The position numbers and the translations under genes were made by a program. The notes beneath the pieces are model-generated. The model saw only the letters and a program-made list of their open reading frames with translations, made no database searches and was not told where the DNA came from. Below are positions 1-13,306 of a DNA stretch of 13,306 nt, in pieces. Source of the DNA: a virus. Within the stretch, counting starts at the first letter, position 1, and every line of letters starts with the position of its first letter. The stretch is taken from the IMG/VR virus record IMGVR_UViG_3300045988_153975, one strand, 5' to 3'.

Positions 1-207
1 GTGGTAGTACTTTAGCACATTAAAGTGGTAACGCATTAACGCTTCACCACACTAAAGTTCCCACATGCACTTGTCTATGCACTAGAATTGTTAACAGCAC
101 AAGTTTTAGTTAATATAAAATAGTTGTTGACAAAGAATAACTAGTGTGCTATAATCTTTTTAGAAACAAGATAACAGTTTTAAATGAAAGGAGAAACATA
201 TGTATAC
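1..207. repeat. Left inverted terminal repeat (ITR-L), 207 bp
   Basis: I reverse-complemented 13100..13306 by hand and it matches 1..207 at every base. Identity ends at position 208 (a, against t in the mirror). A terminal location next to a protein-primed polymerase fits a phi29/Cp-1-type replication origin. Confidence 0.97.
127..155 (+). promoter_or_regulatory. Consensus sigma-70/sigma-A promoter inside ITR-L (early, left arm)
   Basis: TTGACA (127-132), a 17-nt spacer, then TGcTATAAT with the -10 at 150-155 and the extended TG at 147-148. It lies about 45 nt upstream of the ATG at 200. Confidence 0.85.
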
Positions 208-394
208 ACTTAAGGAAGTTTTAGAATTAGTAAATGCAGGAGAAGATATTTATTGTGAATTATATCGAGGAGGAAGTTATATTTGTGAGGGTTGGCTTCA
301 GGGATCAACTCTGAAACCTGATACAAAGATTGAGTCATACAGACTCGATTATGATTCGGTCGTTGAAGATTACCTGGTACTGCATCTTGCGTAA
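200..394 (+). CDS. Small terminal early protein, paralog family member A (64 aa), function unknown
   Basis: An AAAGGAG RBS sits 7 nt upstream of the ATG. The first 8 nt of the ORF lie inside the ITR. It aligns along its full length with the 64-aa ORF at 12913..13107 (MYTL..VLEL...YRG..YI.EG...Y.L.....DYL.LH.A). It is acidic. Confidence 0.8.
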   Translation: MYTLKEVLELVNAGEDIYCELYRGGSYICEGWLQGSTLKPDTKIESYRLDYDSVVEDYLVLHLA

Positions 395-4982: not shown

Positions 4983-6372
4983 AATAAAATCCCCCTTCTA
5001 AAAATTCTTTTACCATTTTCTTTTCCGGTTCGGTTGCGGAAAAATTGATCGCACCATTTTCCACTTTCACATACCCGGTACAATCAGAAATCTTCCGGTG
5101 CTGACAGAGCGGTGAGCCGTTATCAGCTTTGTCATACGCGACTTGCGAAAAATAGTTCGCTTTCAGCGCAACAAAGTGACCAAGACCAATTGCCGCCATA
5201 CCGCTGTTAGTCCCGGTTGTATTCAAAATGCTGTTGCTCGCTTCCATGGATGAAGCGATACCAGACCCAGAAAAAGCGCCAGCAAGACCAGACACCAGTC
5301 CGTTCCACGCCGTTGATAATGCACCAGATAAGCCTGAATATTGTTTTTCGTAGTTGAACGCGACATTGGAAAGCTGTATGGTCACACCAACTTGCGCCTG
5401 GCCTTCATAGAGAAGTCTGTAGTTCTGAGTATCCTCACCAACCCTTGATTCGATTCGCAGGATTCCCTTACCAGTCACAAAGTCAAATGTCGCCGTGAAA
5501 AGAACATCATCAACAATTTTGTTACCGTCCAAGGGGATCACGCCCCACGGATCGGCTACCGCGTAATACTCAGCAAAGGGCGGATATCTCAGATAAACCA
5601 GATCCTCATTATGCGGGCGTTTCGGTCTTTTCAATGTCAACGTCTGCGAGGATGTAGTAGAAATCAGCTTGTGCCCTGTCAGTGTCGGAGTAGACCAGAA
5701 CCCGAACCCAAGCGGTGTTGCTCCTTCTTCTGCAGGAACTGGAACAGGGAACCACAAGCAAGAAACCACATATTGAAAGGGGTCAATGAATGCTTTCGCT
5801 ACATCTCCTGCGAAATCGGTAATCTGATCCCAAGACTGAATAGAACCGAGCATGTAGGCGCGAAAAGCCGCCATTTCTGCGCCTGTCAGTGCATAGTACG
5901 CGACACCGCCTGCGACCGTATCATTGTTGTTTACCAGACCCACCACATAAGTTCCTTTATCCAGATCTGGGTTTACCCAGTCCCAAGAACCCACGTTTGA
6001 TGCGTTTTCCACGCCGACGACGGTAGGATATAAGCTATCAATGATTGTCGGGTCTTGGAACGTAGCGCATCTCAGAATATAAGCGGTGGTGTCACCAATC
6101 ACTGTTTTATACGTTGCAAGAACATCCTCAGACAGAACGACGCGCCAGATACCTTTTTCCCAAATCACATCCTGCACAAAGTAATACCGTGAGAAAGCGG
6201 GGATATAGGCATAGTTGTAAGTAGTCACATTTTCAACCACTTCCAGTTCCGGTCTGATGATAGAGGTGTTATCTTTTAAAACGGCTTGTATAGTCAATCC
6301 CCCCGCTGAGGGGGGATTTTTTGTACTGTTGAGCCGTTTAGAAAAGGTGTAAAGAGTAACTGATAATGCCAT
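4975..6372 (-). CDS. Tail knob / distal tail protein (phi29 gp9-like)
   Basis: It follows the capsid gene. The N-terminal pattern ...YAYIPAFSRYYFV....SEDVLATYK is comparable to phi29 gp9 (...WFYAFV...EIDVLQTW). A Gly/Ala/Ser-rich hydrophobic segment (GLSGALSTAWNGLVSGLAGAFSGSGIASS) and a C-terminal block resemble the gp9 membrane-active loop and C-terminus. Confidence 0.6.
   Translation of the reverse strand: MALSVTLYTFSKRLNSTKNPPSAGGLTIQAVLKDNTSIIRPELEVVENVTTYNYAYIPAFSRYYFVQDVIWEKGIWRVVLSEDVLATYKTVIGDTTAYILRCATFQDPTIIDSLYPTVVGVENASNVGSWDWVNPDLDKGTYVVGLVNNNDTVAGGVAYYALTGAEMAAFRAYMLGSIQSWDQITDFAGDVAKAFIDPFQYVVSCLWFPVPVPAEEGATPLGFGFWSTPTLTGHKLISTTSSQTLTLKRPKRPHNEDLVYLRYPPFAEYYAVADPWGVIPLDGNKIVDDVLFTATFDFVTGKGILRIESRVGEDTQNYRLLYEGQAQVGVTIQLSNVAFNYEKQYSGLSGALSTAWNGLVSGLAGAFSGSGIASSMEASNSILNTTGTNSGMAAIGLGHFVALKANYFSQVAYDKADNGSPLCQHRKISDCTGYVKVENGAINFSATEPEKKMVKEFLEGGFYYE
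6296..6322 (+). other. Strong GC hairpin plus T-run embedded in the tail knob coding sequence (terminator-like on the antisense + strand)
   Basis: AATCCCCCC (6296-6304), loop GCTGA, GGGGGGATT (6310-6318), then TTTT to 6322. On the - strand the same bases encode KNPPSAGGL. Confidence 0.4.
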
Positions 6373-6390
6373 GTTAACTCCTTTCTTTAC

Positions 6391-6404
6391 GTTTCATGTG
6401 AAAC
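6391..6404. promoter_or_regulatory. Copy 2 (variant) of the palindrome: GTTTCATGTGAAAC
   Basis: It differs from the other copies by one central substitution (CG to TG). It sits in the 33-nt gap between the capsid stop (6406) and the tail knob start (6372), 6 nt upstream of the RBS AGAAAGGAG. Confidence 0.5.
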
Positions 6405-6405
6405 A

Positions 6406-7629
6406 TTATGAAGCGGTTGGATCGGCAACATAAAAGACGATAGCATTTTCCGTAAAATCATTCCAGTAACGATCTGTGAAGTGCCAGAACTGATTGTAGT
6501 AGCCACCTCTAGCATTGAACGGACTTGGCTGTGACCACTCGTTTACGGTTGTGTATCCTGCCGCTTCTTCATCAAAAAGAACGCCGAATACATTATTGAT
6601 AGCTATGTTGTCACTCGTGTTCAGAGTGCCATCTTTGTTCAGCATCACCGGTGTGTTCTGAATCTGAGAAGGATTTAAAGCCGACTGCCAGAAGTTCACT
6701 CTTTCAAAGTCAACGAGTTTGAGAAAGTCGGGATTGAAAACACTAGAATAAATCTCGCTGTTGATTTTATTAACCAAATCAGTATACAGATAGAACTTCA
6801 TTCTGTCTTTCGGAGTATGCCGAACAACCGTATAGTTCGTCAGCTGTGAAGAGAACAGTGTGTTCCTGTCTGTCATTAAATCCGCAAGCGTATTGATTGT
6901 TGAAAATGCGAATTTCACAAAGCTTTCAAAATTCTCCGCTTTGAAAATATCGTTGACCCCTAACGCCCTGCCGTTTGTCTCATTATACAACGACAGAAGA
7001 TCGATTGCACGTTTGCCGCCGTTTGATTTTGCCATGGTATTTGCCGTACCGGCTGTTGTCTCAGCCGCATAAATACCAGAAATCAGATTATTGATTGTAG
7101 CTCTTGCGGTTTCCTCATGCGCCTGCTCAATCATATCCGAAGCGTTCTGCATGACCATCGAAATGAAGGACGCGAACTCATCGGGGGAAGAGAAAGCGCA
7201 ATCAAGCTGATCTTTGTAGATCGTCACCGACTTCTGATACTGATTCGCACCGTAAAAGTTTGTCTGTAAAACTTTCGGTTTGTTAACCTTATACTGATCA
7301 ATAGACTCCCCGTCAACCAGCTTCAAACGATCATCATCCTCGAACGGTTTGTCGATCGTCAGAAGTTTACGAACATGATTTCCATACCGCTGATTGGATA
7401 CGTTCAGCCCTCTAAATTTCCGTGTGTACGGTCTGACAGAGAAAATTGTCCGTGACAGAACCTGTGAAATTGCAGTAGTCAACGGGTCGTAACCAGTTTT
7501 CAACGCCATCTGTGCAACAGACACAAAGGAAGCAGTATCAACCGGTGCAATATTATTCACTCCAGTAGCCTGATTTGTAATCGCTGTCAGCACGGTTGAC
7601 AGCTGATCAAAGCTTAAATCATTTGCCAT
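6406..7629 (-). CDS. Major capsid protein (phi29 gp8 family)
   Basis: It follows the scaffold gene with a TAATG overlap. Blocks AENFESFVKFAFSTINTLA and NARGGYYNQFWHFTDRYW parallel recalled phi29 gp8 segments WGNFESFVSSIINAIYNS and NPRGLYWNYYYHVWQ. Confidence 0.82.
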   Translation of the reverse strand: MANDLSFDQLSTVLTAITNQATGVNNIAPVDTASFVSVAQMALKTGYDPLTTAISQVLSRTIFSVRPYTRKFRGLNVSNQRYGNHVRKLLTIDKPFEDDDRLKLVDGESIDQYKVNKPKVLQTNFYGANQYQKSVTIYKDQLDCAFSSPDEFASFISMVMQNASDMIEQAHEETARATINNLISGIYAAETTAGTANTMAKSNGGKRAIDLLSLYNETNGRALGVNDIFKAENFESFVKFAFSTINTLADLMTDRNTLFSSQLTNYTVVRHTPKDRMKFYLYTDLVNKINSEIYSSVFNPDFLKLVDFERVNFWQSALNPSQIQNTPVMLNKDGTLNTSDNIAINNVFGVLFDEEAAGYTTVNEWSQPSPFNARGGYYNQFWHFTDRYWNDFTENAIVFYVADPTAS

Positions 7630-7991
7630 TATTTTTTTTCTCCTTTCGGGTTGATGATGGATGCTAAAATATCATCGGTGGTTTCCCTCTGTGTGACGGG
7701 CTGAGATGAGAAAAGCAATGCCTGCTTTTTCATGTCCTCCCGAAGTCCTAACAGAGCATCCAGAACGGGATCACCGGATGTTTCCGTCTGCTGAACCTGG
7801 GCTGTCTGCTGAACCGGAGCTGTCTGCTGAACCTGGGCTGTCTGCTGAACCGGAGCTGTCTGCTGAACCGGGGCTGTCTGCTGAACCGGGGCTGTCTGCT
7901 GAACCGGGGCTGTCTGTAAACCAGCAAGAGCCACAATCTGATCTCGGGTGAACCCGGCTTTTGCTAACACTAAAATGTCTTCCTGTTTCAT
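7629..7991 (-). CDS. Putative scaffolding protein containing a (TAPVQQ)n repeat
   Basis: It is a small (120 aa) gene directly upstream of, and translationally coupled to, the capsid gene, as phi29 gene 7 is. It has charged termini and a good RBS (GAAAGGAGAA). Confidence 0.55.
   Translation of the reverse strand: MKQEDILVLAKAGFTRDQIVALAGLQTAPVQQTAPVQQTAPVQQTAPVQQTAQVQQTAPVQQTAQVQQTETSGDPVLDALLGLREDMKKQALLFSSQPVTQRETTDDILASIINPKGEKK
7786..7917. repeat. Tandem 18-bp repeat, 7 full units plus a partial unit
   Basis: The unit is GTCTGCTGAACC(T/G)G(G/A)GCT. Units 1-4 form two 36-bp super-units. Units 5-7 are identical. In frame it encodes TAPVQQ / TAQVQQ within the scaffold ORF. Confidence 0.95.
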
Positions 7992-8185
7992 TTTTCTTTT
8001 TCTCCTTTCAATGATTCTTCCAGTCGGATAAGTGCCTGTGTGTTGTTGTTTAATGCATCTGTGATTTTTTCCATTTCCGCTTTATGGCTGTCGCTCTCTT
8101 TCATCATTCGCCAAAAGAGCGCGCCGCAACAGACGATTGGAAATCCCAACGTCTGCACCATGGTCATGATGACATTCGCGTCCAT
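7988..8185 (-). CDS. Small single-pass membrane protein (65 aa), YvrJ-like; holin candidate
   Basis: I prefer the ATG at 8185, with AAAGAGG 5 nt upstream. The ORF-track start at 8191 is a GTG lying inside the RBS. One hydrophobic helix (LGFPIVCCGALFW) is followed by a charged coiled-coil-like tail. The GFPI-hydrophobic-R pattern resembles the YvrJ family as I recall it. It overlaps the scaffold gene through ATGA. Confidence 0.6.
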   Translation of the reverse strand: MDANVIMTMVQTLGFPIVCCGALFWRMMKESDSHKAEMEKITDALNNNTQALIRLEESLKGEKEK

Positions 8186-8209
8186 ATCCACCTCTTTCTA
8201 TCCCGGTTT

Positions 8210-8237
8210 AATAAAACAGGCGGTGTAATACCGCCTG
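8210..8237 (-). terminator. Intrinsic terminator immediately upstream of the first late gene
   Basis: On the - strand: CAGGCGGT, loop ATTAC, ACCGCCTG (a perfect 8-bp GC-rich stem), then TTTTATT. The U-tract ends about 10 nt before the RBS of the 7988..8185 gene. Confidence 0.75.
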
Positions 8238-8310
8238 CCGAAAAGGATTCCTGTTCCGAAACATAGAACATGTGCATCCTTCCGGGATTGTTTCTAGCAC
8301 TTCCTTTTCA
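8210..8310 (-). ncRNA. About 100-nt structured leader or candidate small RNA, from the late promoter to the terminator
   Basis: The predicted start is about 7 nt below the -10. A long helix pairs CCGGAAGGAT with ATCC(T)TTTCGG (8238-8285 on + coordinates), with an inner TGTTC/GAACA stem, and abuts the terminator hairpin. An alternative 8-bp pairing is GAAAAGGA (5' end) with TCCTTTTC. I found no convincing ORF. Confidence 0.35.
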
Positions 8311-8316
8311 CCTATG

Positions 8317-8345
8317 ATTATAACATGGAACCATCTTTTTAGCAA
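8317..8345 (-). promoter_or_regulatory. Candidate late promoter (TTGCTA, 17 nt, TGTTATAAT)
   Basis: On the - strand: TTGCTA (8345-8340), a 17-nt spacer, extended -10 TGT, TATAAT (8322-8317). It lies wholly within the ATPase/late-gene intergenic region, one base from the 18-bp palindrome. Confidence 0.65.
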
Positions 8346-8346
8346 G

Positions 8347-8364
8347 ATGTTTCACGTGAAACAT
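8347..8364. promoter_or_regulatory. Copy 3 of the palindrome, the longest form: ATGTTTCACGTGAAACAT (18-bp perfect)
   Basis: It is a perfect 18-bp palindrome. It overlaps the ATPase stop codon (8352-8354) and ends 1 nt from the -35 of the candidate late promoter. Confidence 0.6.
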
Positions 8365-9392
8365 TTTGTAAAAAGAACTTGAATGATATAGTTTTCAAGA
8401 TAAAGGGAGCGTGATAGGAACGCAATCCAGAGGTAACGATATTTCAAACGGAATCGCACCTTATCATTTTCACTCATGCTATAATTTTCTTTGAACACAC
8501 CAGACTTGAATGATGTGACGTAGTACTCCTGCCGTGACTTGTGACGATAGATATACATTTCCCCTACGTGAACCAACGGTTTGAACTCTTTGATGTTTCT
8601 ACTTCCTATATTGTCCGCCCTGTCTTTCGTGAACACATTTTTCAGTGCCATCTGGTAAAAGTCAGAATCCCTTGACACCAGATTGTACAATGCTGTCTTT
8701 TCTTTCGCTTCCGAAATCGGGCTGTCTTGACAGATGATCAGCGCCAGACCCCTTTCTTTATCAATCCAGATAGATGTGCCATTTTGATACATCTTCTCGG
8801 CTCTTAGCACAAGTCCTAGTGATATGAACAATTCATTTGCCATGTTATTACTATTAGCGGCGCAGATCACTTTGACGGGTGGAATCCCTTTCAATTCACG
8901 GTTTCGGTTAATTGTTTCATAGCAGTTAAAGAAAGCTTCCGCTTCGTTTTTCAATGGTCGCTCATGGGCTTCTGCAATGAACTCATCGTAGAAGATGAGA
9001 GAGATATCACTCGCATCAAAACCCCTCATATTCGAAATGGTTGACAGTGCAAGGGAATAACAGAACGGTTCTGGTGAAATAATCGTTCCTTCCATATCCG
9101 TTTCATAAAACGCACTGCTCTGCTTTGTTAGTGATACCGCCTTAAACAAGCGATTCATATCTCCCAGTACTGGTTTGAGCGGTGAAAATTCCGGTTTGGA
9201 TATGAGATCAGCTTGTGTCTGCGTCCTTCTCATCAGAGCAAACTTGATCTTCTTCTCAATGGCAAACTTACATACACCGTACGTTTTCCCTGTTCCCCGG
9301 CCGCCGACAATAAAGATAAACGGCACATCTATATTGTATATTGCTGGTATGTTGATAAAACCGTTGCGGTCATATATATTCTTCTCTTTCAT
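8352..9392 (-). CDS. DNA packaging (encapsidation) ATPase, phi29 gp16 family
   Basis: Walker A VGGRGTGKTY compares with phi29 GARGIGKSY. Walker B-like LIFYDEFI compares with IVFDEFI, and RNRE is shared. I prefer the ATG at 9392, with GAGGTG 6 nt upstream, over the GTG at 9401. Confidence 0.9.
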   Translation of the reverse strand: MKEKNIYDRNGFINIPAIYNIDVPFIFIVGGRGTGKTYGVCKFAIEKKIKFALMRRTQTQADLISKPEFSPLKPVLGDMNRLFKAVSLTKQSSAFYETDMEGTIISPEPFCYSLALSTISNMRGFDASDISLIFYDEFIAEAHERPLKNEAEAFFNCYETINRNRELKGIPPVKVICAANSNNMANELFISLGLVLRAEKMYQNGTSIWIDKERGLALIICQDSPISEAKEKTALYNLVSRDSDFYQMALKNVFTKDRADNIGSRNIKEFKPLVHVGEMYIYRHKSRQEYYVTSFKSGVFKENYSMSENDKVRFRLKYRYLWIAFLSRSLYLENYIIQVLFTKCFT

Positions 9393-9409
9393 ATGATACA
9401 CCTCTATGG

Positions 9410-12173: not shown

Positions 12174-12776
12174 TCATTTTTTACCTTTCTTTAACAAACT
12201 CAAAATCTCATCGGCACTCTTTGATTCGATATCCGGCAGATTACTGATTTTATCTCGATTCTTAAGCCAACTTTCGAGGTCTTTTGCTAATTCTGTCGGT
12301 GCAACCTTGTAGCGTGTTGCTTCCCATAATTTTACAAGGACCTCTGAATCGTATTGAAGATCAGTAGCCTGCTCAGATAATAACTCCATAAAATCTGTGA
12401 AATTCTGAAAATTCTCCTCTGTCACATCATAATCGTATGAGCGTAGCTTTTTTATTTTTTGCGCTCTCAACTCATACTGACCAGTAACAGTAGAAAGAGG
12501 ATTGTGTATAAAGCGTGCTAATTGTGACAACGCCAATGGCACTTGCCGTTCTGTCAGTTCTGACAGTTTTTTCGTGTTCGTTGCATTATACTTATATGCG
12601 GAGGACTTGCCGAAACCTGCTTTAGAAAGTCTGGAAAGACGTTTGACCGCTATTGCTCGAAGCCTTGAATACTCTTTTCTCACCTCAGAAGGTGTGTAGT
12701 TATTTATAAGATATTGAGGATTATAGCGCTCGAGTGATCCAAAGCCAAGTTTGGCAGAGGGTTTGAATTTTGCCAT
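12174..12776 (-). CDS. Putative terminal protein (replication primer)
   Basis: The call rests mainly on synteny: it is the gene immediately upstream of the protein-primed polymerase and nearly abuts it (TGAtATG), as gene 3 and gene 2 do in phi29. It is 200 aa, basic at the N-terminus and acidic in the C-terminal half. Sequence resemblance to phi29 TP is weak. Confidence 0.5.
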   Translation of the reverse strand: MAKFKPSAKLGFGSLERYNPQYLINNYTPSEVRKEYSRLRAIAVKRLSRLSKAGFGKSSAYKYNATNTKKLSELTERQVPLALSQLARFIHNPLSTVTGQYELRAQKIKKLRSYDYDVTEENFQNFTDFMELLSEQATDLQYDSEVLVKLWEATRYKVAPTELAKDLESWLKNRDKISNLPDIESKSADEILSLLKKGKK

Positions 12777-12795
12777 TGTGTGTTCTCCTTTCTAT

Positions 12796-12809
12796 GTTTC
12801 ACGTGAAAC
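12796..12809. promoter_or_regulatory. Copy 4 of the palindrome GTTTCACGTGAAAC, upstream of the terminal protein RBS
   Basis: This is an exact 14-mer, 5 nt upstream of RBS GAAAGGAG and 20 nt upstream of the ATG at 12776. It lies between the right ITR promoter and the replication genes. Confidence 0.55.
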
Positions 12810-12810
12810 T

Positions 12811-12900
12811 TTAAAAACCAAATAAGTAAAGTATAGGCAGTGCTATGATTGATAGCACTGCCAAAATCGATATAAATATAATCTGTACTATTTCTTTCAT
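12811..12900 (-). CDS. Possible 29-aa hydrophobic micro-protein
   Basis: AAAGGAGAG lies 4-5 nt before the ATG at 12900. My translation is MKEIVQIIFISILAVLSIIALPILYLFGF, a single transmembrane-like helix. The caveat is that it overlaps a 10-bp perfect inverted repeat, so the region may be regulatory RNA instead. Confidence 0.35.
   Translation of the reverse strand: MKEIVQIIFISILAVLSIIALPILYLFGF
12837..12863 (-). other. Perfect 10-bp stem hairpin (GGCAGTGCTA / TAGCACTGCC, 7-nt loop)
   Basis: The inverted repeat is seen directly. On the - strand it is followed by the U-rich TATACTTTACTTATTT. It could be a weak terminator or attenuator between the terminal small gene and the replication genes. 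Confidence 0.4.
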
Positions 12901-12912
12901 TTTCTCTCCTTT

Positions 12913-13107
12913 CTATGCAATATGCAATAGGAGATAATCACCGTACTCACCACTCTCCAAACTGTACCTCTCAATTCTAATTCTAGTATTTGAAGGTAAT
13001 AAATCCGACAAAATGCCTTCGGAAATATATCTATCACCCCTATAAATCACGCACCACAATCCTTTGTTAAACTTCGTCAATTCTAAAACACTCTGTAAAG
13101 TATACAT
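12913..13107 (-). CDS. Small terminal early protein, paralog family member C (64 aa)
   Basis: It is the mirror-image counterpart of 200..394. It shares the same ITR-borne promoter, RBS and first 8 nt, then diverges strongly in nucleotide sequence while keeping length and a conserved protein scaffold. Confidence 0.8.
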   Translation of the reverse strand: MYTLQSVLELTKFNKGLWCVIYRGDRYISEGILSDLLPSNTRIRIERYSLESGEYGDYLLLHIA

Positions 13108-13306
13108 ATGTTTCTCCTTTCATTTAAAACTGTTATCTTGTTTCTAAAAAGATTATAGCACACTAGTTATTCTTTGTCAACAACTATTTTATATTAACTA
13201 AAACTTGTGCTGTTAACAATTCTAGTGCATAGACAAGTGCATGTGGGAACTTTAGTGTGGTGAAGCGTTAATGCGTTACCACTTTAATGTGCTAAAGTAC
13301 TACCAC
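13100..13306. repeat. Right inverted terminal repeat (ITR-R), 207 bp
   Basis: It is the perfect reverse complement of 1..207. Confidence 0.97.
13152..13180 (-). promoter_or_regulatory. Consensus promoter inside ITR-R (early, right arm)
   Basis: This is the mirror copy of 127..155: TTGACA, 17 nt, TGcTATAAT on the - strand. It probably drives the replication operon. Confidence 0.85.

What the first reader, a model, noticed from the sequence alone, without database searches (positions are those of the whole stretch)
8210..8364. Late promoter followed by a ~100-nt structured leader ending in a strong terminator just before the first late gene
The only good promoter upstream of the structural genes is TTGCTA, 17 nt, TGTTATAAT at 8345-8317. 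It is followed by two abutting hairpins. The second is a textbook intrinsic terminator (8-bp GC stem plus UUUUAUU) that ends about 10 nt before the late RBS. There is no room for another promoter after it. Either late expression needs antitermination or terminator read-through, or the unit makes a discrete small RNA. The first option has the same logic as lambda PR'-6S RNA-tR' with Q loading at the promoter, and the 18-bp palindrome touching the -35 would be a natural loading or binding site. In the second option, the RNA is encoded next to the packaging ATPase in a phi29-like phage, so a pRNA-like packaging RNA is worth testing. An alternative 5' pairing (GAAAAGGA/TCCTTTTC) competes with the first helix, as in attenuators. 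phi29 itself uses the p4 activator, not antitermination.
Basis: partly seen in the sequence, partly recalled or inferred. Interest (0 to 1): 0.78.

Follow-up and report, generated by a model that had tools for sequence, protein, structure and literature searches.

The report
Mini pRNA-like RNA heading late genes
Between the packaging ATPase gene and the late genes of this 13-kb phi29-like gut phage lies a conserved ~72-nt three-way-junction RNA laid out like a half-size phi29 packaging RNA, which may show that RNA-dependent DNA packaging is not confined to Bacillus phages.

Summary
The "first hairpin" is really a three-way junction (3WJ).

Covariance models find exactly one copy per genome in about 100 related 12-15-kb phage contigs (ATPase identity 30-98%). 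All four helices covary strongly. A 7-8-nt bulge on the 5' side of P2 is complementary to the P3 loop, with about 40 different helix sequences. The P2 end loop, CGGAA, is almost invariant.

This order of elements matches phi29 and Nf prohead RNA (A helix; C helix, CE bulge, E hairpin; D hairpin). The phage also encodes phi29-type connector, capsid and full-length gp16-type ATPase. Rfam has no match, and I found no report of pRNA outside Bacillus phages.

The RNA always heads the late operon, even when the ATPase gene lies elsewhere. In about 40% of the RNAs, a covarying motif next to the first late gene's ribosome-binding site can pair with the CGGAA loop. The separate terminator hairpin exists only in this clade.

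Best reading: a compact pRNA-type RNA that also leads the late transcript (about 0.5). Main rival: a purely cis-regulatory leader (about 0.3). Lambda-like antitermination is poorly supported.

The parts
8347..8364 (.). 18-bp perfect palindrome ATGTTTCACGTGAAACAT. Probable operator of a phage regulator. It overlaps the ATPase stop codon and ends 1 nt before the -35.
   Evidence: Further copies lie at 12794-12809, 2175-2190 and (variant) 6383-6406. The same GTTTCACGTGAAAC core sits in the promoter spacer or after the RNA in distant relatives.
8317..8345 (-). Sigma-A/sigma-70-type promoter: -35 TTGCTA (8345-8340), 17-nt spacer, extended -10 TGTTATAAT (8325-8317). Predicted +1 at about 8311-8309.
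   Evidence: Relatives mostly have TTGACA-17-TATAAT, with the -10 ending 4-7 nt before the first P1 nucleotide.
8240..8309 (-). Three-way-junction RNA core, 70 nt. P1 8309-8302/8247-8240. P2a 8300-8297/8275-8272. 5'-side bulge 8296-8289. P2b 8288-8285/8279-8276. L2 CGGAA 8284-8280. J23 A 8271. P3 8270-8265/8257-8252. L3 8264-8258. J31 GGAA 8251-8248.
   Evidence: MFE folds. Covariance-model hits score 105 and 69.6 bits. 94.8% of cells are paired and 21 of 22 pairs show double changes, against about 40% paired in slid controls.
8289..8294 (-). Bulge segment GAAACA. Pairs with the L3 segment UGUUUC (8263-8258). Equivalent to the CE-bulge/D-loop pairing of pRNA.
   Evidence: About 40 distinct helix sequences occur across the family. 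Own pairing reaches 4 bp or more in 88% of RNAs, against 42% for cross-pairing. The clade L012-L017 has GAAACC/GGUUUC.
8258..8263 (-). L3 segment UGUUUC, partner of the bulge segment.
8280..8284 (-). L2 pentaloop CGGAA, nearly invariant across the family (E-loop equivalent).
   Evidence: C 77, G 70, G 76, A 77 and A 77 of 77 unique sequences.
8210..8239 (-). Intrinsic terminator abutting P1 with 0 nt between them: stem 8239-8230/8224-8215, loop 8229-8225, U-tract to 8210. Present only in the window's clade.
   Evidence: -16.5 kcal/mol, z = -4.6. Conserved in L001-L018 with loop-length variation. Absent in other clades.
8200..8206 (-). 'Anti-L2' motif CCGGGAU. It is complementary to AUCCCGG (8288-8282: the P2b 5' strand plus the first L2 nucleotides) and lies a few nt upstream of the RBS.
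   Evidence: It covaries across clades (AGCCGGA/UCCGGCU, GGACGGAA/UUCCGUCC, CCUGA/UCAGG and others). Extension of 3 bp or more into the stem occurs in 57% of own pairings and 14% of cross-pairings. The full-leader MFE uses this pairing.
7988..8199 (-). RBS (within AGAAAGAGG, 8199-8191) and the first late gene: a small membrane protein annotated holin-like, with probable ATG at 8185-8183.
   Evidence: phrog_4898 holin, E = 7e-9. The start is conserved in relatives.
8352..9401 (-). phi29 gp16-type DNA packaging ATPase, immediately upstream of the RNA.
   Evidence: PF05894; the family profile matches phi29 gp16 (7jqq_A) over 5-335 against 2-320.

Best explanation
The unit is a gene for a small structured non-coding RNA. 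I read it as the compact counterpart of phi29 prohead/packaging RNA (pRNA) in a large family of 12-15-kb phi29-like gut and rumen phages.

Proposed mechanism:
- Host RNA polymerase starts at about 8311-8309 from a near-consensus promoter, so the first transcribed bases form P1 with the 3' end of the RNA.
- The RNA folds into a three-way junction. P1 corresponds to the pRNA A helix. P2a, the 7-8-nt 5'-side bulge and the P2b hairpin correspond to the C helix, CE bulge and E hairpin. P3 corresponds to the D hairpin.
- The bulge (GAAACA) pairs with the P3 loop (UGUUUC). As in phi29, I infer this pairing occurs between neighbouring molecules and closes an RNA ring on the connector.
- The invariant CGGAA loop is the inferred prohead or connector contact.
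- P1 is extended in this clade by the coaxially abutting terminator hairpin. It is the inferred dock for the gp16-type ATPase.
- In this clade the terminator at 8239-8210 releases a roughly 100-nt RNA.
- Polymerases that read through produce the late mRNA (holin-like protein, scaffold, capsid and so on).
- In read-through transcripts the motif CCGGGAU (8206-8200) can capture the L2/P2b strand and refold the leader. This may mask the RNA or tune translation of the first late gene.

Shown: the sequence features, the fold, the covariation, the one-per-genome distribution, the position, and the homology of the motor proteins.

Inferred: the 3' end of the RNA, read-through, intermolecular pairing, and any role in packaging.
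For: Phage background:
- The window is a complete linear genome with 228-bp inverted terminal repeats.
- It encodes phi29-type protein-primed PolB, SSB, capsid, connector and gp16 ATPase.
- The ATPase family profile aligns with full-length phi29 gp16, including its C-terminal domain. The connector matches phi29 gp10 structures.
- In phi29 the pRNA is the main link between the motor and the procapsid (PMC7672431).

The RNA:
- The 3WJ is the MFE fold. It is found once per genome in about 100 relatives.
- Every helix covaries.
- The bulge-L3 complementarity is maintained with about 40 different sequences.
- Folds of real Nf and phi29 pRNAs show the same order of elements: a 7-9-nt bulge on the 5' side only, a 4-bp E hairpin identical in both phages, a 4-6-bp D hairpin, and complementary bulge and loop.
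- As in Nf, where the A1 -10 lies 7 nt from the pRNA 5' end, the -10 here ends 4-7 nt before P1.
- A terminator or a U-rich run follows P1 in many clades.
- By the ORF list, this is the only intergenic gap outside the ITRs that could hold a 70-nt structured RNA. The 137-nt gap at 12776-12913 is taken up by a terminator and an operator.
Against: - There is no sequence or covariance-model similarity to Rfam RF00044. That model is narrow, though: it scores true Nf pRNA at only 47 bits against a gathering score of 100.
- The RNA is about 72 nt, against the 120-nt active form of phi29 pRNA. P1 is 8-13 bp without the bulged A-helix features. Junction strands are 1/1/4 nt, against 1/3/0 in phi29.
- The RNA never stands alone. 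It always heads the late operon on the same strand, in four different genome layouts.
- Many clades have no convincing terminator between it and the first late gene.
- A covarying pairing links L2/P2b to the region next to the late RBS in about 40% of the RNAs. This points to a cis role.
- The strongly conserved unpaired nucleotides resemble a ligand-, ribosome- or polymerase-binding RNA as much as a partner of a phage protein.
- Whether the bulge-L3 pairing is inter- or intramolecular cannot be told from sequence.
Confidence: 0.5

Rival explanations
1. A purely cis-acting regulatory leader of the late operon. The 3WJ, with an intramolecular bulge-L3 pseudoknot, would be a sensor or operator bound by a phage protein, a host factor or a small ligand. 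Its state would decide whether the L2/P2b strand pairs with the motif just upstream of the first late gene's RBS. In this clade it would also affect how much transcription passes the terminator. Late-protein synthesis would be timed this way.
For: - The RNA is always at +1 of the promoter that faces the late genes, on their strand, typically within about 30-100 nt of the first late start codon. This holds in four genome layouts: directly after the ATPase gene; 8.4 kb away on the other strand (L099 clade); divergent from the early operon (L154); and after ATPase-TP-Pol (L169).
- The anti-L2 motif lies next to the RBS rather than next to the RNA. It follows the terminator in the window and the operator in L062.
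- The anti-L2 motif covaries with P2b, and with L2 itself in L091.
- In the window, the full leader is predicted to prefer the alternative fold by about 5 kcal/mol.
- Unpaired nucleotides are highly conserved.
Against: - The anti-L2 motif is missing in more than half of the RNAs (41 of 99 have it), while the 3WJ is universal.
- P1 is long and G+C-rich in most clades (10-13 bp), unlike a switching helix.
- No consistent RBS-sequestering hairpin was found.
- In the window the terminator has no competing antiterminator.
- No match to any known riboswitch or leader family.
- This reading leaves the exact pRNA-like element order in a phi29-type phage as coincidence.
Confidence: 0.3
2. Promoter-proximal antitermination. 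Polymerase starting at this promoter would become terminator-resistant, either through a Q-like protein loaded at the palindrome or through the nascent 3WJ RNA acting on polymerase like HK022 put or EAR RNAs. It would then read through the terminator at 8239-8210, while transcription arriving from the early operon stops there.
For: - A strong terminator directly follows a promoter-proximal structured RNA in the window and its 18 close relatives.
- No terminator separates the ATPase gene from this promoter, so insulating early from late transcription would make sense.
- An invariant loop fits a conserved host partner such as RNA polymerase.
Against: - The discrete terminator exists only in this clade. 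Other clades have at most P1 plus a U-rich run, and several have an A-rich spacer running straight to the RBS.
- The scan found no strong internal terminator in the late operon that would need processive antitermination.
- No Q-, N- or LoaP-like protein was recognised.
- The palindrome is a four-copy operator that also occurs downstream of the RNA in other clades.
- The structure is a 3WJ, not the two stem-loops of put, and there is no Rfam match.
Confidence: 0.07
3. A generic 5' stabiliser: a stable structure at the very 5' end that protects the late mRNA from 5'-end-dependent decay in Firmicutes, with no specific partner.
For: - P1 starts at the predicted +1.
- In clades without a terminator the RNA would remain at the 5' end of the late mRNA.
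Against: A stabiliser needs only a terminal hairpin. It does not explain the fixed 3WJ dimensions, the covarying bulge-L3 pairing, the invariant CGGAA loop or the conserved junction nucleotides.
Confidence: 0.05

Closest known systems
Prohead/packaging RNA (pRNA) of Bacillus phages phi29, Nf/M2, GA-1 and DLc1 (Rfam RF00044 'Phage_pRNA')
   Same: - The encoding phage has a homologous connector (gp10), capsid, full-length gp16-type ATPase and protein-primed replication.
- The RNA starts at +1 of a sigma-A promoter, and its 5' and 3' ends form the closing helix.
- The three-way junction has the same order of elements: a stem, a 7-9-nt bulge on the 5' side only, a 4-bp hairpin with a conserved loop, then a second 4-6-bp hairpin whose loop is Watson-Crick complementary (4-6 nt) to the bulge. 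That complementarity covaries (PMC12670572 for loop covariation in known pRNAs).
   Different: - About 72 nt, against the 120-nt active form (174-nt transcript) of phi29 pRNA.
- The C-helix equivalent is 4-5 bp, against 9-10 bp.
- The A-helix equivalent is 8-13 bp and lacks bulges.
- Junction strands are 1/1/4 nt, against 1/3/0.
- No sequence or CM similarity.
- It heads the late operon instead of forming a stand-alone early unit at the genome end.
- About 40% of the RNAs carry an extra motif that can pair with the E-loop equivalent.
- Hosts are gut and rumen anaerobes, not Bacillus.
- Function is untested.
Lambda PR'-6S RNA-tR' with Q antitermination; HK022 put RNA
   Same: A strong promoter, a short structured transcript and a terminator sit in front of the late genes in the window's clade.
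   Different: - The terminator is not conserved outside this clade.
- No Q-like gene was found.
- The RNA is a covarying 3WJ with a tertiary pairing, not two simple stem-loops.
- The palindrome is a multi-copy operator.
Translational riboswitches and protein-binding leader operators (for example r-protein leaders, the T4 gene 32 leader pseudoknot)
   Same: - A structured element at the 5' end of an operon with conserved unpaired nucleotides.
- An alternative pairing reaches the translation-initiation region.
   Different: - No known family matches.
- The closing helix is long and stable.
- The alternative pairing is absent from more than half of the RNAs.
- No ligand or protein partner is known.

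Membership tests
phi29-type prohead RNA (pRNA) | Encoded by a phage with the phi29-type packaging motor: gp10 connector, gp16 ATPase with a non-nuclease C-terminal domain, and a unit-length protein-primed genome. | tested here: met
   PF05352, PF05894, PF25622, PF03175 and PF17427 all match. The ATPase profile matches phi29 gp16 7jqq_A over its full length. The connector matches 1h5w. The genome has 228-bp ITRs. Loss of nuclease activity was not tested directly.
phi29-type prohead RNA (pRNA) | A three-way junction whose closing (A) helix joins the 5' and 3' ends, with a C/E arm carrying a 5'-side bulge and a D hairpin arm. | tested here: met
   for this RNA. for Nf and phi29 pRNA folded with the same tool. 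Helix lengths and junction strands differ.
phi29-type prohead RNA (pRNA) | Complementary, covarying CE-bulge ('right-hand') and D-loop ('left-hand') sequences. | tested here: met
   About 40 distinct helix sequences. Own pairing of 4 bp or more in 88% of RNAs, against 42% for cross-pairing.
phi29-type prohead RNA (pRNA) | The loop-loop pairing is intermolecular and builds a ring on the prohead. | not testable with these tools
   Sequence cannot distinguish intra- from intermolecular pairing. Arguments from junction topology were inconclusive.
phi29-type prohead RNA (pRNA) | Recognisable by the Rfam RF00044 covariance model. | tested here: not met
   No RF00044 hit at E <= 10 in window 8100-8450, nor at E <= 1 in five relatives' loci. 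The positive control, Nf pRNA, reaches only 47 bits against a gathering score of 100, so the model is narrow.
phi29-type prohead RNA (pRNA) | An approximately 120-nt functional domain with a long bulged A helix that docks the ATPase. | tested here: not met
   The core is 67-79 nt. P1 is 8-13 bp and unbulged. In the window, only the abutting terminator hairpin could lengthen it.
phi29-type prohead RNA (pRNA) | Binds proheads and is required for DNA packaging. | not testable with these tools
   Needs experiments.
Lambda-type promoter-proximal antitermination (Q/qut, 6S-tR') | A conserved promoter-proximal terminator, plus an antiterminator protein with a loading site at the promoter. | tested here: not met
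   The terminator is confined to the window's clade. No Q-like protein was found. The palindrome is multi-copy and its position varies.
Riboswitch or cis-regulatory leader | A conserved sensor domain plus an expression platform with mutually exclusive pairings that affect a terminator or RBS. | tested here: inconclusive
   The conserved domain is present. An alternative L2/P2b:anti-L2 pairing is supported by covariation but occurs in only 41 of 99 RNAs. There is no consistent RBS sequestration. No known class matches.
Rho-independent terminator | A G+C-rich hairpin immediately followed by a U run. | tested here: met
   Window 8239-8210: -16.5 kcal/mol, z = -4.6. Not listed by the pattern scan.

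The most novel reading that the evidence does not exclude
A dual-function RNA. Terminated copies would form a half-size pRNA that assembles on the connector and docks the ATPase. In read-through late mRNAs the same sequence would be refolded by the anti-L2 motif beside the ribosome-binding site. One promoter-terminator unit would then set the ratio of packaging RNA to late mRNA. It would keep mRNA-attached copies off proheads, and it would couple translation of the holin-like first late gene to the state of the RNA. This would also mean that RNA-dependent packaging is ancestral and widespread among phi29-like phages, not a Bacillus-phage oddity.
Probability: 0.2. Interest if true: 0.9.

Novelty: new variant of a known kind. 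Interest (0 to 1): 0.8.

Why it matters
pRNA is the only known RNA that is an integral part of a viral DNA-packaging motor. Current reviews treat it as unique to phi29 and related Bacillus phages (PMC11476376, PMC5066667). The latest structure-based search added only pRNAs recovered with phi29, GA1 and DLc1 pRNA models (PMC12670572).

A 72-nt RNA with the same layout, present in every member of a very large family of uncultivated gut and rumen phages, would matter in four ways:
1. It would make the origin and necessity of pRNA testable in a second, distant lineage.
2. It would define the minimal RNA scaffold able to bridge connector and ATPase.
4. It would explain a conserved non-coding element that genome annotation currently misses.

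If the element turns out to be a cis-regulator instead, it would be a new, widespread class of phage late-gene leader RNA.

Tried and rejected
- **Rfam.** Searches at gathering and at permissive thresholds gave nothing relevant on the window or on relatives. RF00044 finds only the Nf control.
- **Coding reading.** The 45-aa ORF at 8208-8345 starts with TTG inside the -35. Relatives carry 1-nt indels on one P1 strand or the other, and compensatory changes. I rejected it.
- **L2-L3 kissing (GGAA/UUUC).** This was my first idea. I dropped it once relatives showed that L3 pairs with the P2 bulge while L2 is invariant.
- **Close DNA relatives among deposited phages.** None.
- **Cultured relatives.**
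  - Amedibacillus phage AD70P3 has a look-alike 3WJ in the same gap, but the CM misses it. Its fold is not significant (z = -1.2). Its only IMG/VR relative has an identical ATPase (100% aa), so no covariation test was attempted.
  - Clostridium innocuum phages CI130P2, CI55P1 and CI461P1 have a conserved 150-nt pol-ATPase spacer with a possible larger 3WJ. At 95% identity no covariation test is possible.
- **RBS sequestration.** A consistent RBS-sequestering hairpin involving the anti-L2 motif was not found.
- **Inter- versus intramolecular pairing.** Deciding this from junction-strand lengths was inconclusive. By analogy from my own knowledge, some 3WJ RNAs such as the SRP Alu domain pair neighbouring loops intramolecularly despite short linkers.
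- **Palindrome-binding regulator.** Pfam gave no match for the small ORFs.
Full report
**What the window is.** The 13,306-bp window is a complete linear phage genome with 228-bp inverted terminal repeats. It encodes a protein-primed family-B DNA polymerase and a phi29-type SSB. It also encodes a phi29-type major capsid protein, a gp10-type connector and a gp16-type packaging ATPase. A profile of the ATPase family aligns with phi29 gp16 over its whole length (7jqq_A, residues 2-320). The connector matches phi29 gp10 structures. All large genes are on the - strand. The finding lies between the ATPase gene (9401-8352) and the first late gene. That gene encodes a small holin-like membrane protein (ATG 8185). 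It is followed by a repeat-rich scaffold-like protein and the capsid protein.

**Checking the observation.** Reading the - strand, four of the reported features hold.
- The perfect palindrome ATGTTTCACGTGAAACAT is at 8364-8347 and contains the ATPase stop codon.
- The promoter is TTGCTA, 17 nt, TGTTATAAT at 8345-8317.
- The terminator is at 8239-8210 (-16.5 kcal/mol, z = -4.6).
- The RBS and ATG lie about 25 nt further on.

The pattern scan did not list the terminator, probably because its stem extension through G-U pairs consumes the U run. The hairpin is unambiguous.

One part of the description is wrong. The segment before the terminator is not a hairpin with a competing 5' pairing. GAAAAGGA (8309-8302) and UCCUUUUC (8247-8240) form the closing helix P1 of a three-way junction (3WJ). 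P1 encloses two arms:
- P2: GUGC, an 8-nt bulge, AUCC, the loop CGGAA, GGAU, GCAC.
- P3: UGUUCU, the loop AUGUUUC, GGAACA.

**Conservation in close relatives.** Eighteen IMG/VR contigs with 95-98% identical ATPases carry the element. The promoter spacer beside it varies freely, while the RNA is conserved. Its changes are compensatory:
- U-A to C-G in P2a;
- C-G to U-A in P2b (L018);
- U-A to C-G in P3.

One-nucleotide indels on single P1 strands rule out the overlapping 45-aa ORF.

**Conservation in distant relatives.** Contigs whose ATPases are only 45-50% identical show the same arrangement after the ATPase gene: a near-consensus TTGACA-17-TATAAT promoter, then a 67-79-nt 3WJ of the same design. 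MFE folding alone recovers it in most of them.

I built covariance models in steps:
- R1 from the window clade;
- R2 from 44 diverse hits;
- R3 from 81 hits.

These models find exactly one hit per locus in about 100 loci from IMG/VR, GenBank faecal viromes and MAG assemblies from gut and rumen. ATPase identity goes down to about 30%. No second hit appeared at E <= 0.1-1 in roughly 1.5 Mb searched.

On 45 distinct sequences, 94.8% of pair cells are standard pairs, against about 40% when partners are slid. Twenty-one of 22 pairs show changes on both sides. That alignment is model-fitted, but the signal is far beyond the controls.

**Tertiary pairing and invariant nucleotides.** The bulge on the 5' side of P2 is complementary to the P3 loop in nearly every member. 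The sequences differ widely: GAAACA/UGUUUC here, then GAAACC/GGUUUC, AACC/GGUU, GUGC/GCAC, GCACA/UGUGC, UGUCA/UGACA, GGUCA/UGACC, GUCCA/UGGAC and others. About 40 distinct helices occur. Each RNA's own bulge and loop give 4 bp or more in 88% of cases. Bulges paired with other clades' loops reach that in 42%.

The P2 end loop is CGGAA in essentially all 77 unique sequences. Three other unpaired positions are also conserved:
- the last bulge nucleotide (A);
- the P2-P3 linker (A);
- the third nucleotide of the P3-P1 strand (A).

**Comparison with real pRNAs.** I folded Nf and phi29 pRNA with the same tool. Both show this order: A helix joining the two ends; C helix; a 7-9-nt bulge on the 5' side only; a 4-bp E hairpin that is identical in the two phages; then a 4-6-bp D hairpin whose loop pairs with the bulge (UAUC/GAUA in Nf, AACC/GGUU in phi29). 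In Nf the A1 promoter's -10 lies 7 nt from the pRNA 5' end. In this family the -10 ends 4-7 nt before P1. The new RNA therefore resembles the prohead-binding domain of pRNA with shortened C and A helices.

Several things differ:
- size: 72 nt against 120 nt;
- junction strands: 1/1/4 nt against 1/3/0;
- a short, unbulged P1;
- no detectable similarity to RF00044, although that model scores true Nf pRNA at only 47 bits against a gathering score of 100.

In the literature I could search, pRNA is described as unique to phi29 and related Bacillus phages (PMC11476376; PMC5066667). A 2025 Infernal survey added only pRNAs recovered with phi29, GA1 and DLc1 models (PMC12670572). No paper links pRNA to Guelinviridae or to gut phages.

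**Evidence pointing to a cis role.** The RNA travels with the late operon, not with the ATPase gene.
- In the L099 clade it lies 8.4 kb from the ATPase gene, on the other strand, in front of the late genes.
- In L154 it starts the late operon divergently from the early operon.
- In L169 it follows ATPase-TP-Pol.

Second, in 41 of 99 RNAs a motif close to the first late gene's RBS is complementary to the P2b 5' strand plus the first L2 nucleotides. In the window this is AUCCCGG (8288-8282) with CCGGGAU (8206-8200). The motif covaries:
- AGCCGGA/UCCGGCU;
- CAGCCGG/CCGGCUG;
- GGACGGAA/UUCCGUCC, extending to 9 bp in L102 and L105;
- GCCGGAA/UUCCGGC;
- in L091, a loop change to CUGAA is matched by UCAGG.

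Extension of 3 bp or more into the stem occurs in 57% of own pairings and 14% of cross-pairings.

The motif stays beside the RBS whatever lies between it and the RNA. In the window that is the terminator, and in L062 it is the operator. For the window, the leader folded through the start codon prefers a structure that uses this pairing and dissolves P1 and P2 (-38.7 kcal/mol). The 3WJ plus terminator sum to about -33.5. So the terminated roughly 100-nt RNA and the read-through leader are predicted to fold differently. I found no consistent RBS-sequestering hairpin.

**The terminator and the palindrome.** The discrete terminator is conserved in the window's clade, with loop-length variation only. 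It is absent elsewhere. Other clades have P1 followed by a U- or pyrimidine-rich run (for example GAUUUUAUUUAU, CAAUUUUUUAU) or an A-rich spacer running straight to the RBS. That argues against a lambda-like antitermination module as the conserved function.

The palindrome occurs four times in this genome: 12794-12809 before the terminal-protein gene, 8347-8364, a variant at 6383-6406, and 2175-2190. In relatives it appears inside the promoter spacer or after the RNA. It is lost at this site in clade L012-L017. It behaves as the operator of a phage regulator, not as a promoter-specific loading site. No Q-like protein was recognised.

**Weighing the readings.** The structure, the covariation, the one-per-genome distribution and the position are shown by the analyses. 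Function is inferred.

I favour a compact pRNA-type RNA that is also the first part of the late transcription unit (about 0.5). Four things support this:
- the whole phi29 motor is present and homologous;
- the RNA reproduces the specific pRNA topology, including the covarying bulge-loop pair and an invariant E-type hairpin;
- it begins at +1 and is often followed by termination signals;
- by the ORF list, no other gap in this compact genome could hold such an RNA.

The main rival is a purely cis-acting late-operon leader (about 0.3). It is supported by the invariable linkage to the late genes and by the anti-L2 pairing. The two readings are not exclusive. Antitermination (about 0.07) and a generic 5' stabiliser (about 0.05) explain much less.

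**Verdict.** Whichever function holds, this is an undescribed, widespread structured RNA family. The antitermination idea and the 'competing helix' are not supported.

Noticed in passing
window 12794-12809, 8347-8364, 6383-6406, 2175-2190: The palindrome GTTTCACGTGAAAC (18 bp at full length) occurs four times in the genome: before the terminal-protein gene, before the RNA promoter, between the capsid gene and the next gene, and inside an ORF. It recurs in distant relatives at varying positions. It is likely the operator of an unidentified phage regulator. Pfam found no match (HTH or otherwise) for the small ORFs.
   Followed up: partly
window 1-228 and 13079-13306: The 228-bp inverted terminal repeats each carry an inward-facing perfect consensus promoter (127-155 on +, 13180-13152 on -).
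   Followed up: partly
window 12836-12862 (- strand): At the right end the order is consensus promoter, a 64-aa ORF, an 11-bp-stem hairpin (GGCAGTGCTAT/ATAGCACTGCC), the palindrome operator, then the replication genes. This has the same logic as the RNA unit: promoter, short unit, terminator, then operon.
   Followed up: no
window 7629-7991 (- strand): The scaffold-like 120-aa protein contains about eight tandem copies of the hexapeptide QQTAPV, encoded by an 18-bp DNA repeat.
   Followed up: no
window 8200-8206 with 8282-8288: The motif CCGGGAU beside the late RBS is complementary to the P2b 5' strand plus L2. It covaries in about 40% of the family's RNAs. In the window it is predicted to refold the read-through leader.
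   Followed up: yes
L109 (Amedibacillus phage AD70P3, OP172639) about 6300-6390, - strand: This cultured phage (Guelinviridae, ATPase 32% identical) has a TTGACA/TATTAT promoter in the ATPase-to-late-gene gap, followed by a look-alike 3WJ: UUGC, bulge AUAUCCAA, UAGUG-CCGAA-CACUA, GCAA, a P3 hairpin, and bulge-loop pairing UAUCC/GGAUA. The CM does not detect it and no covariation data exist. It is a possible experimental system.
   Followed up: partly
L110 9978-10126 (-), L111 4748-4897 (+), L118 9887-10035 (-): Clostridium innocuum phages CI130P2, CI55P1 and CI461P1 share a nearly invariant 150-nt spacer between the polymerase and ATPase genes. It has a promoter, a possible larger 3WJ (bulge ACCA, loop UGGU) and a U-rich tail. 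The sequences are too similar to test.
   Followed up: partly
L114 12447-12510 (- strand): A sub-threshold Hammerhead_II match (32.2 bits against a gathering score of 37, E = 0.013) in a faecal-virome relative (MT836263).
   Followed up: no
L120-L199: Many 12-15-kb contigs of this phage family are binned into MAGs labelled as unrelated taxa, including Bacteroidales, Treponema, Methanobrevibacter and Chlamydiaceae. These are probably mis-binned phage genomes, so the labels are unreliable for host assignment.
   Followed up: no
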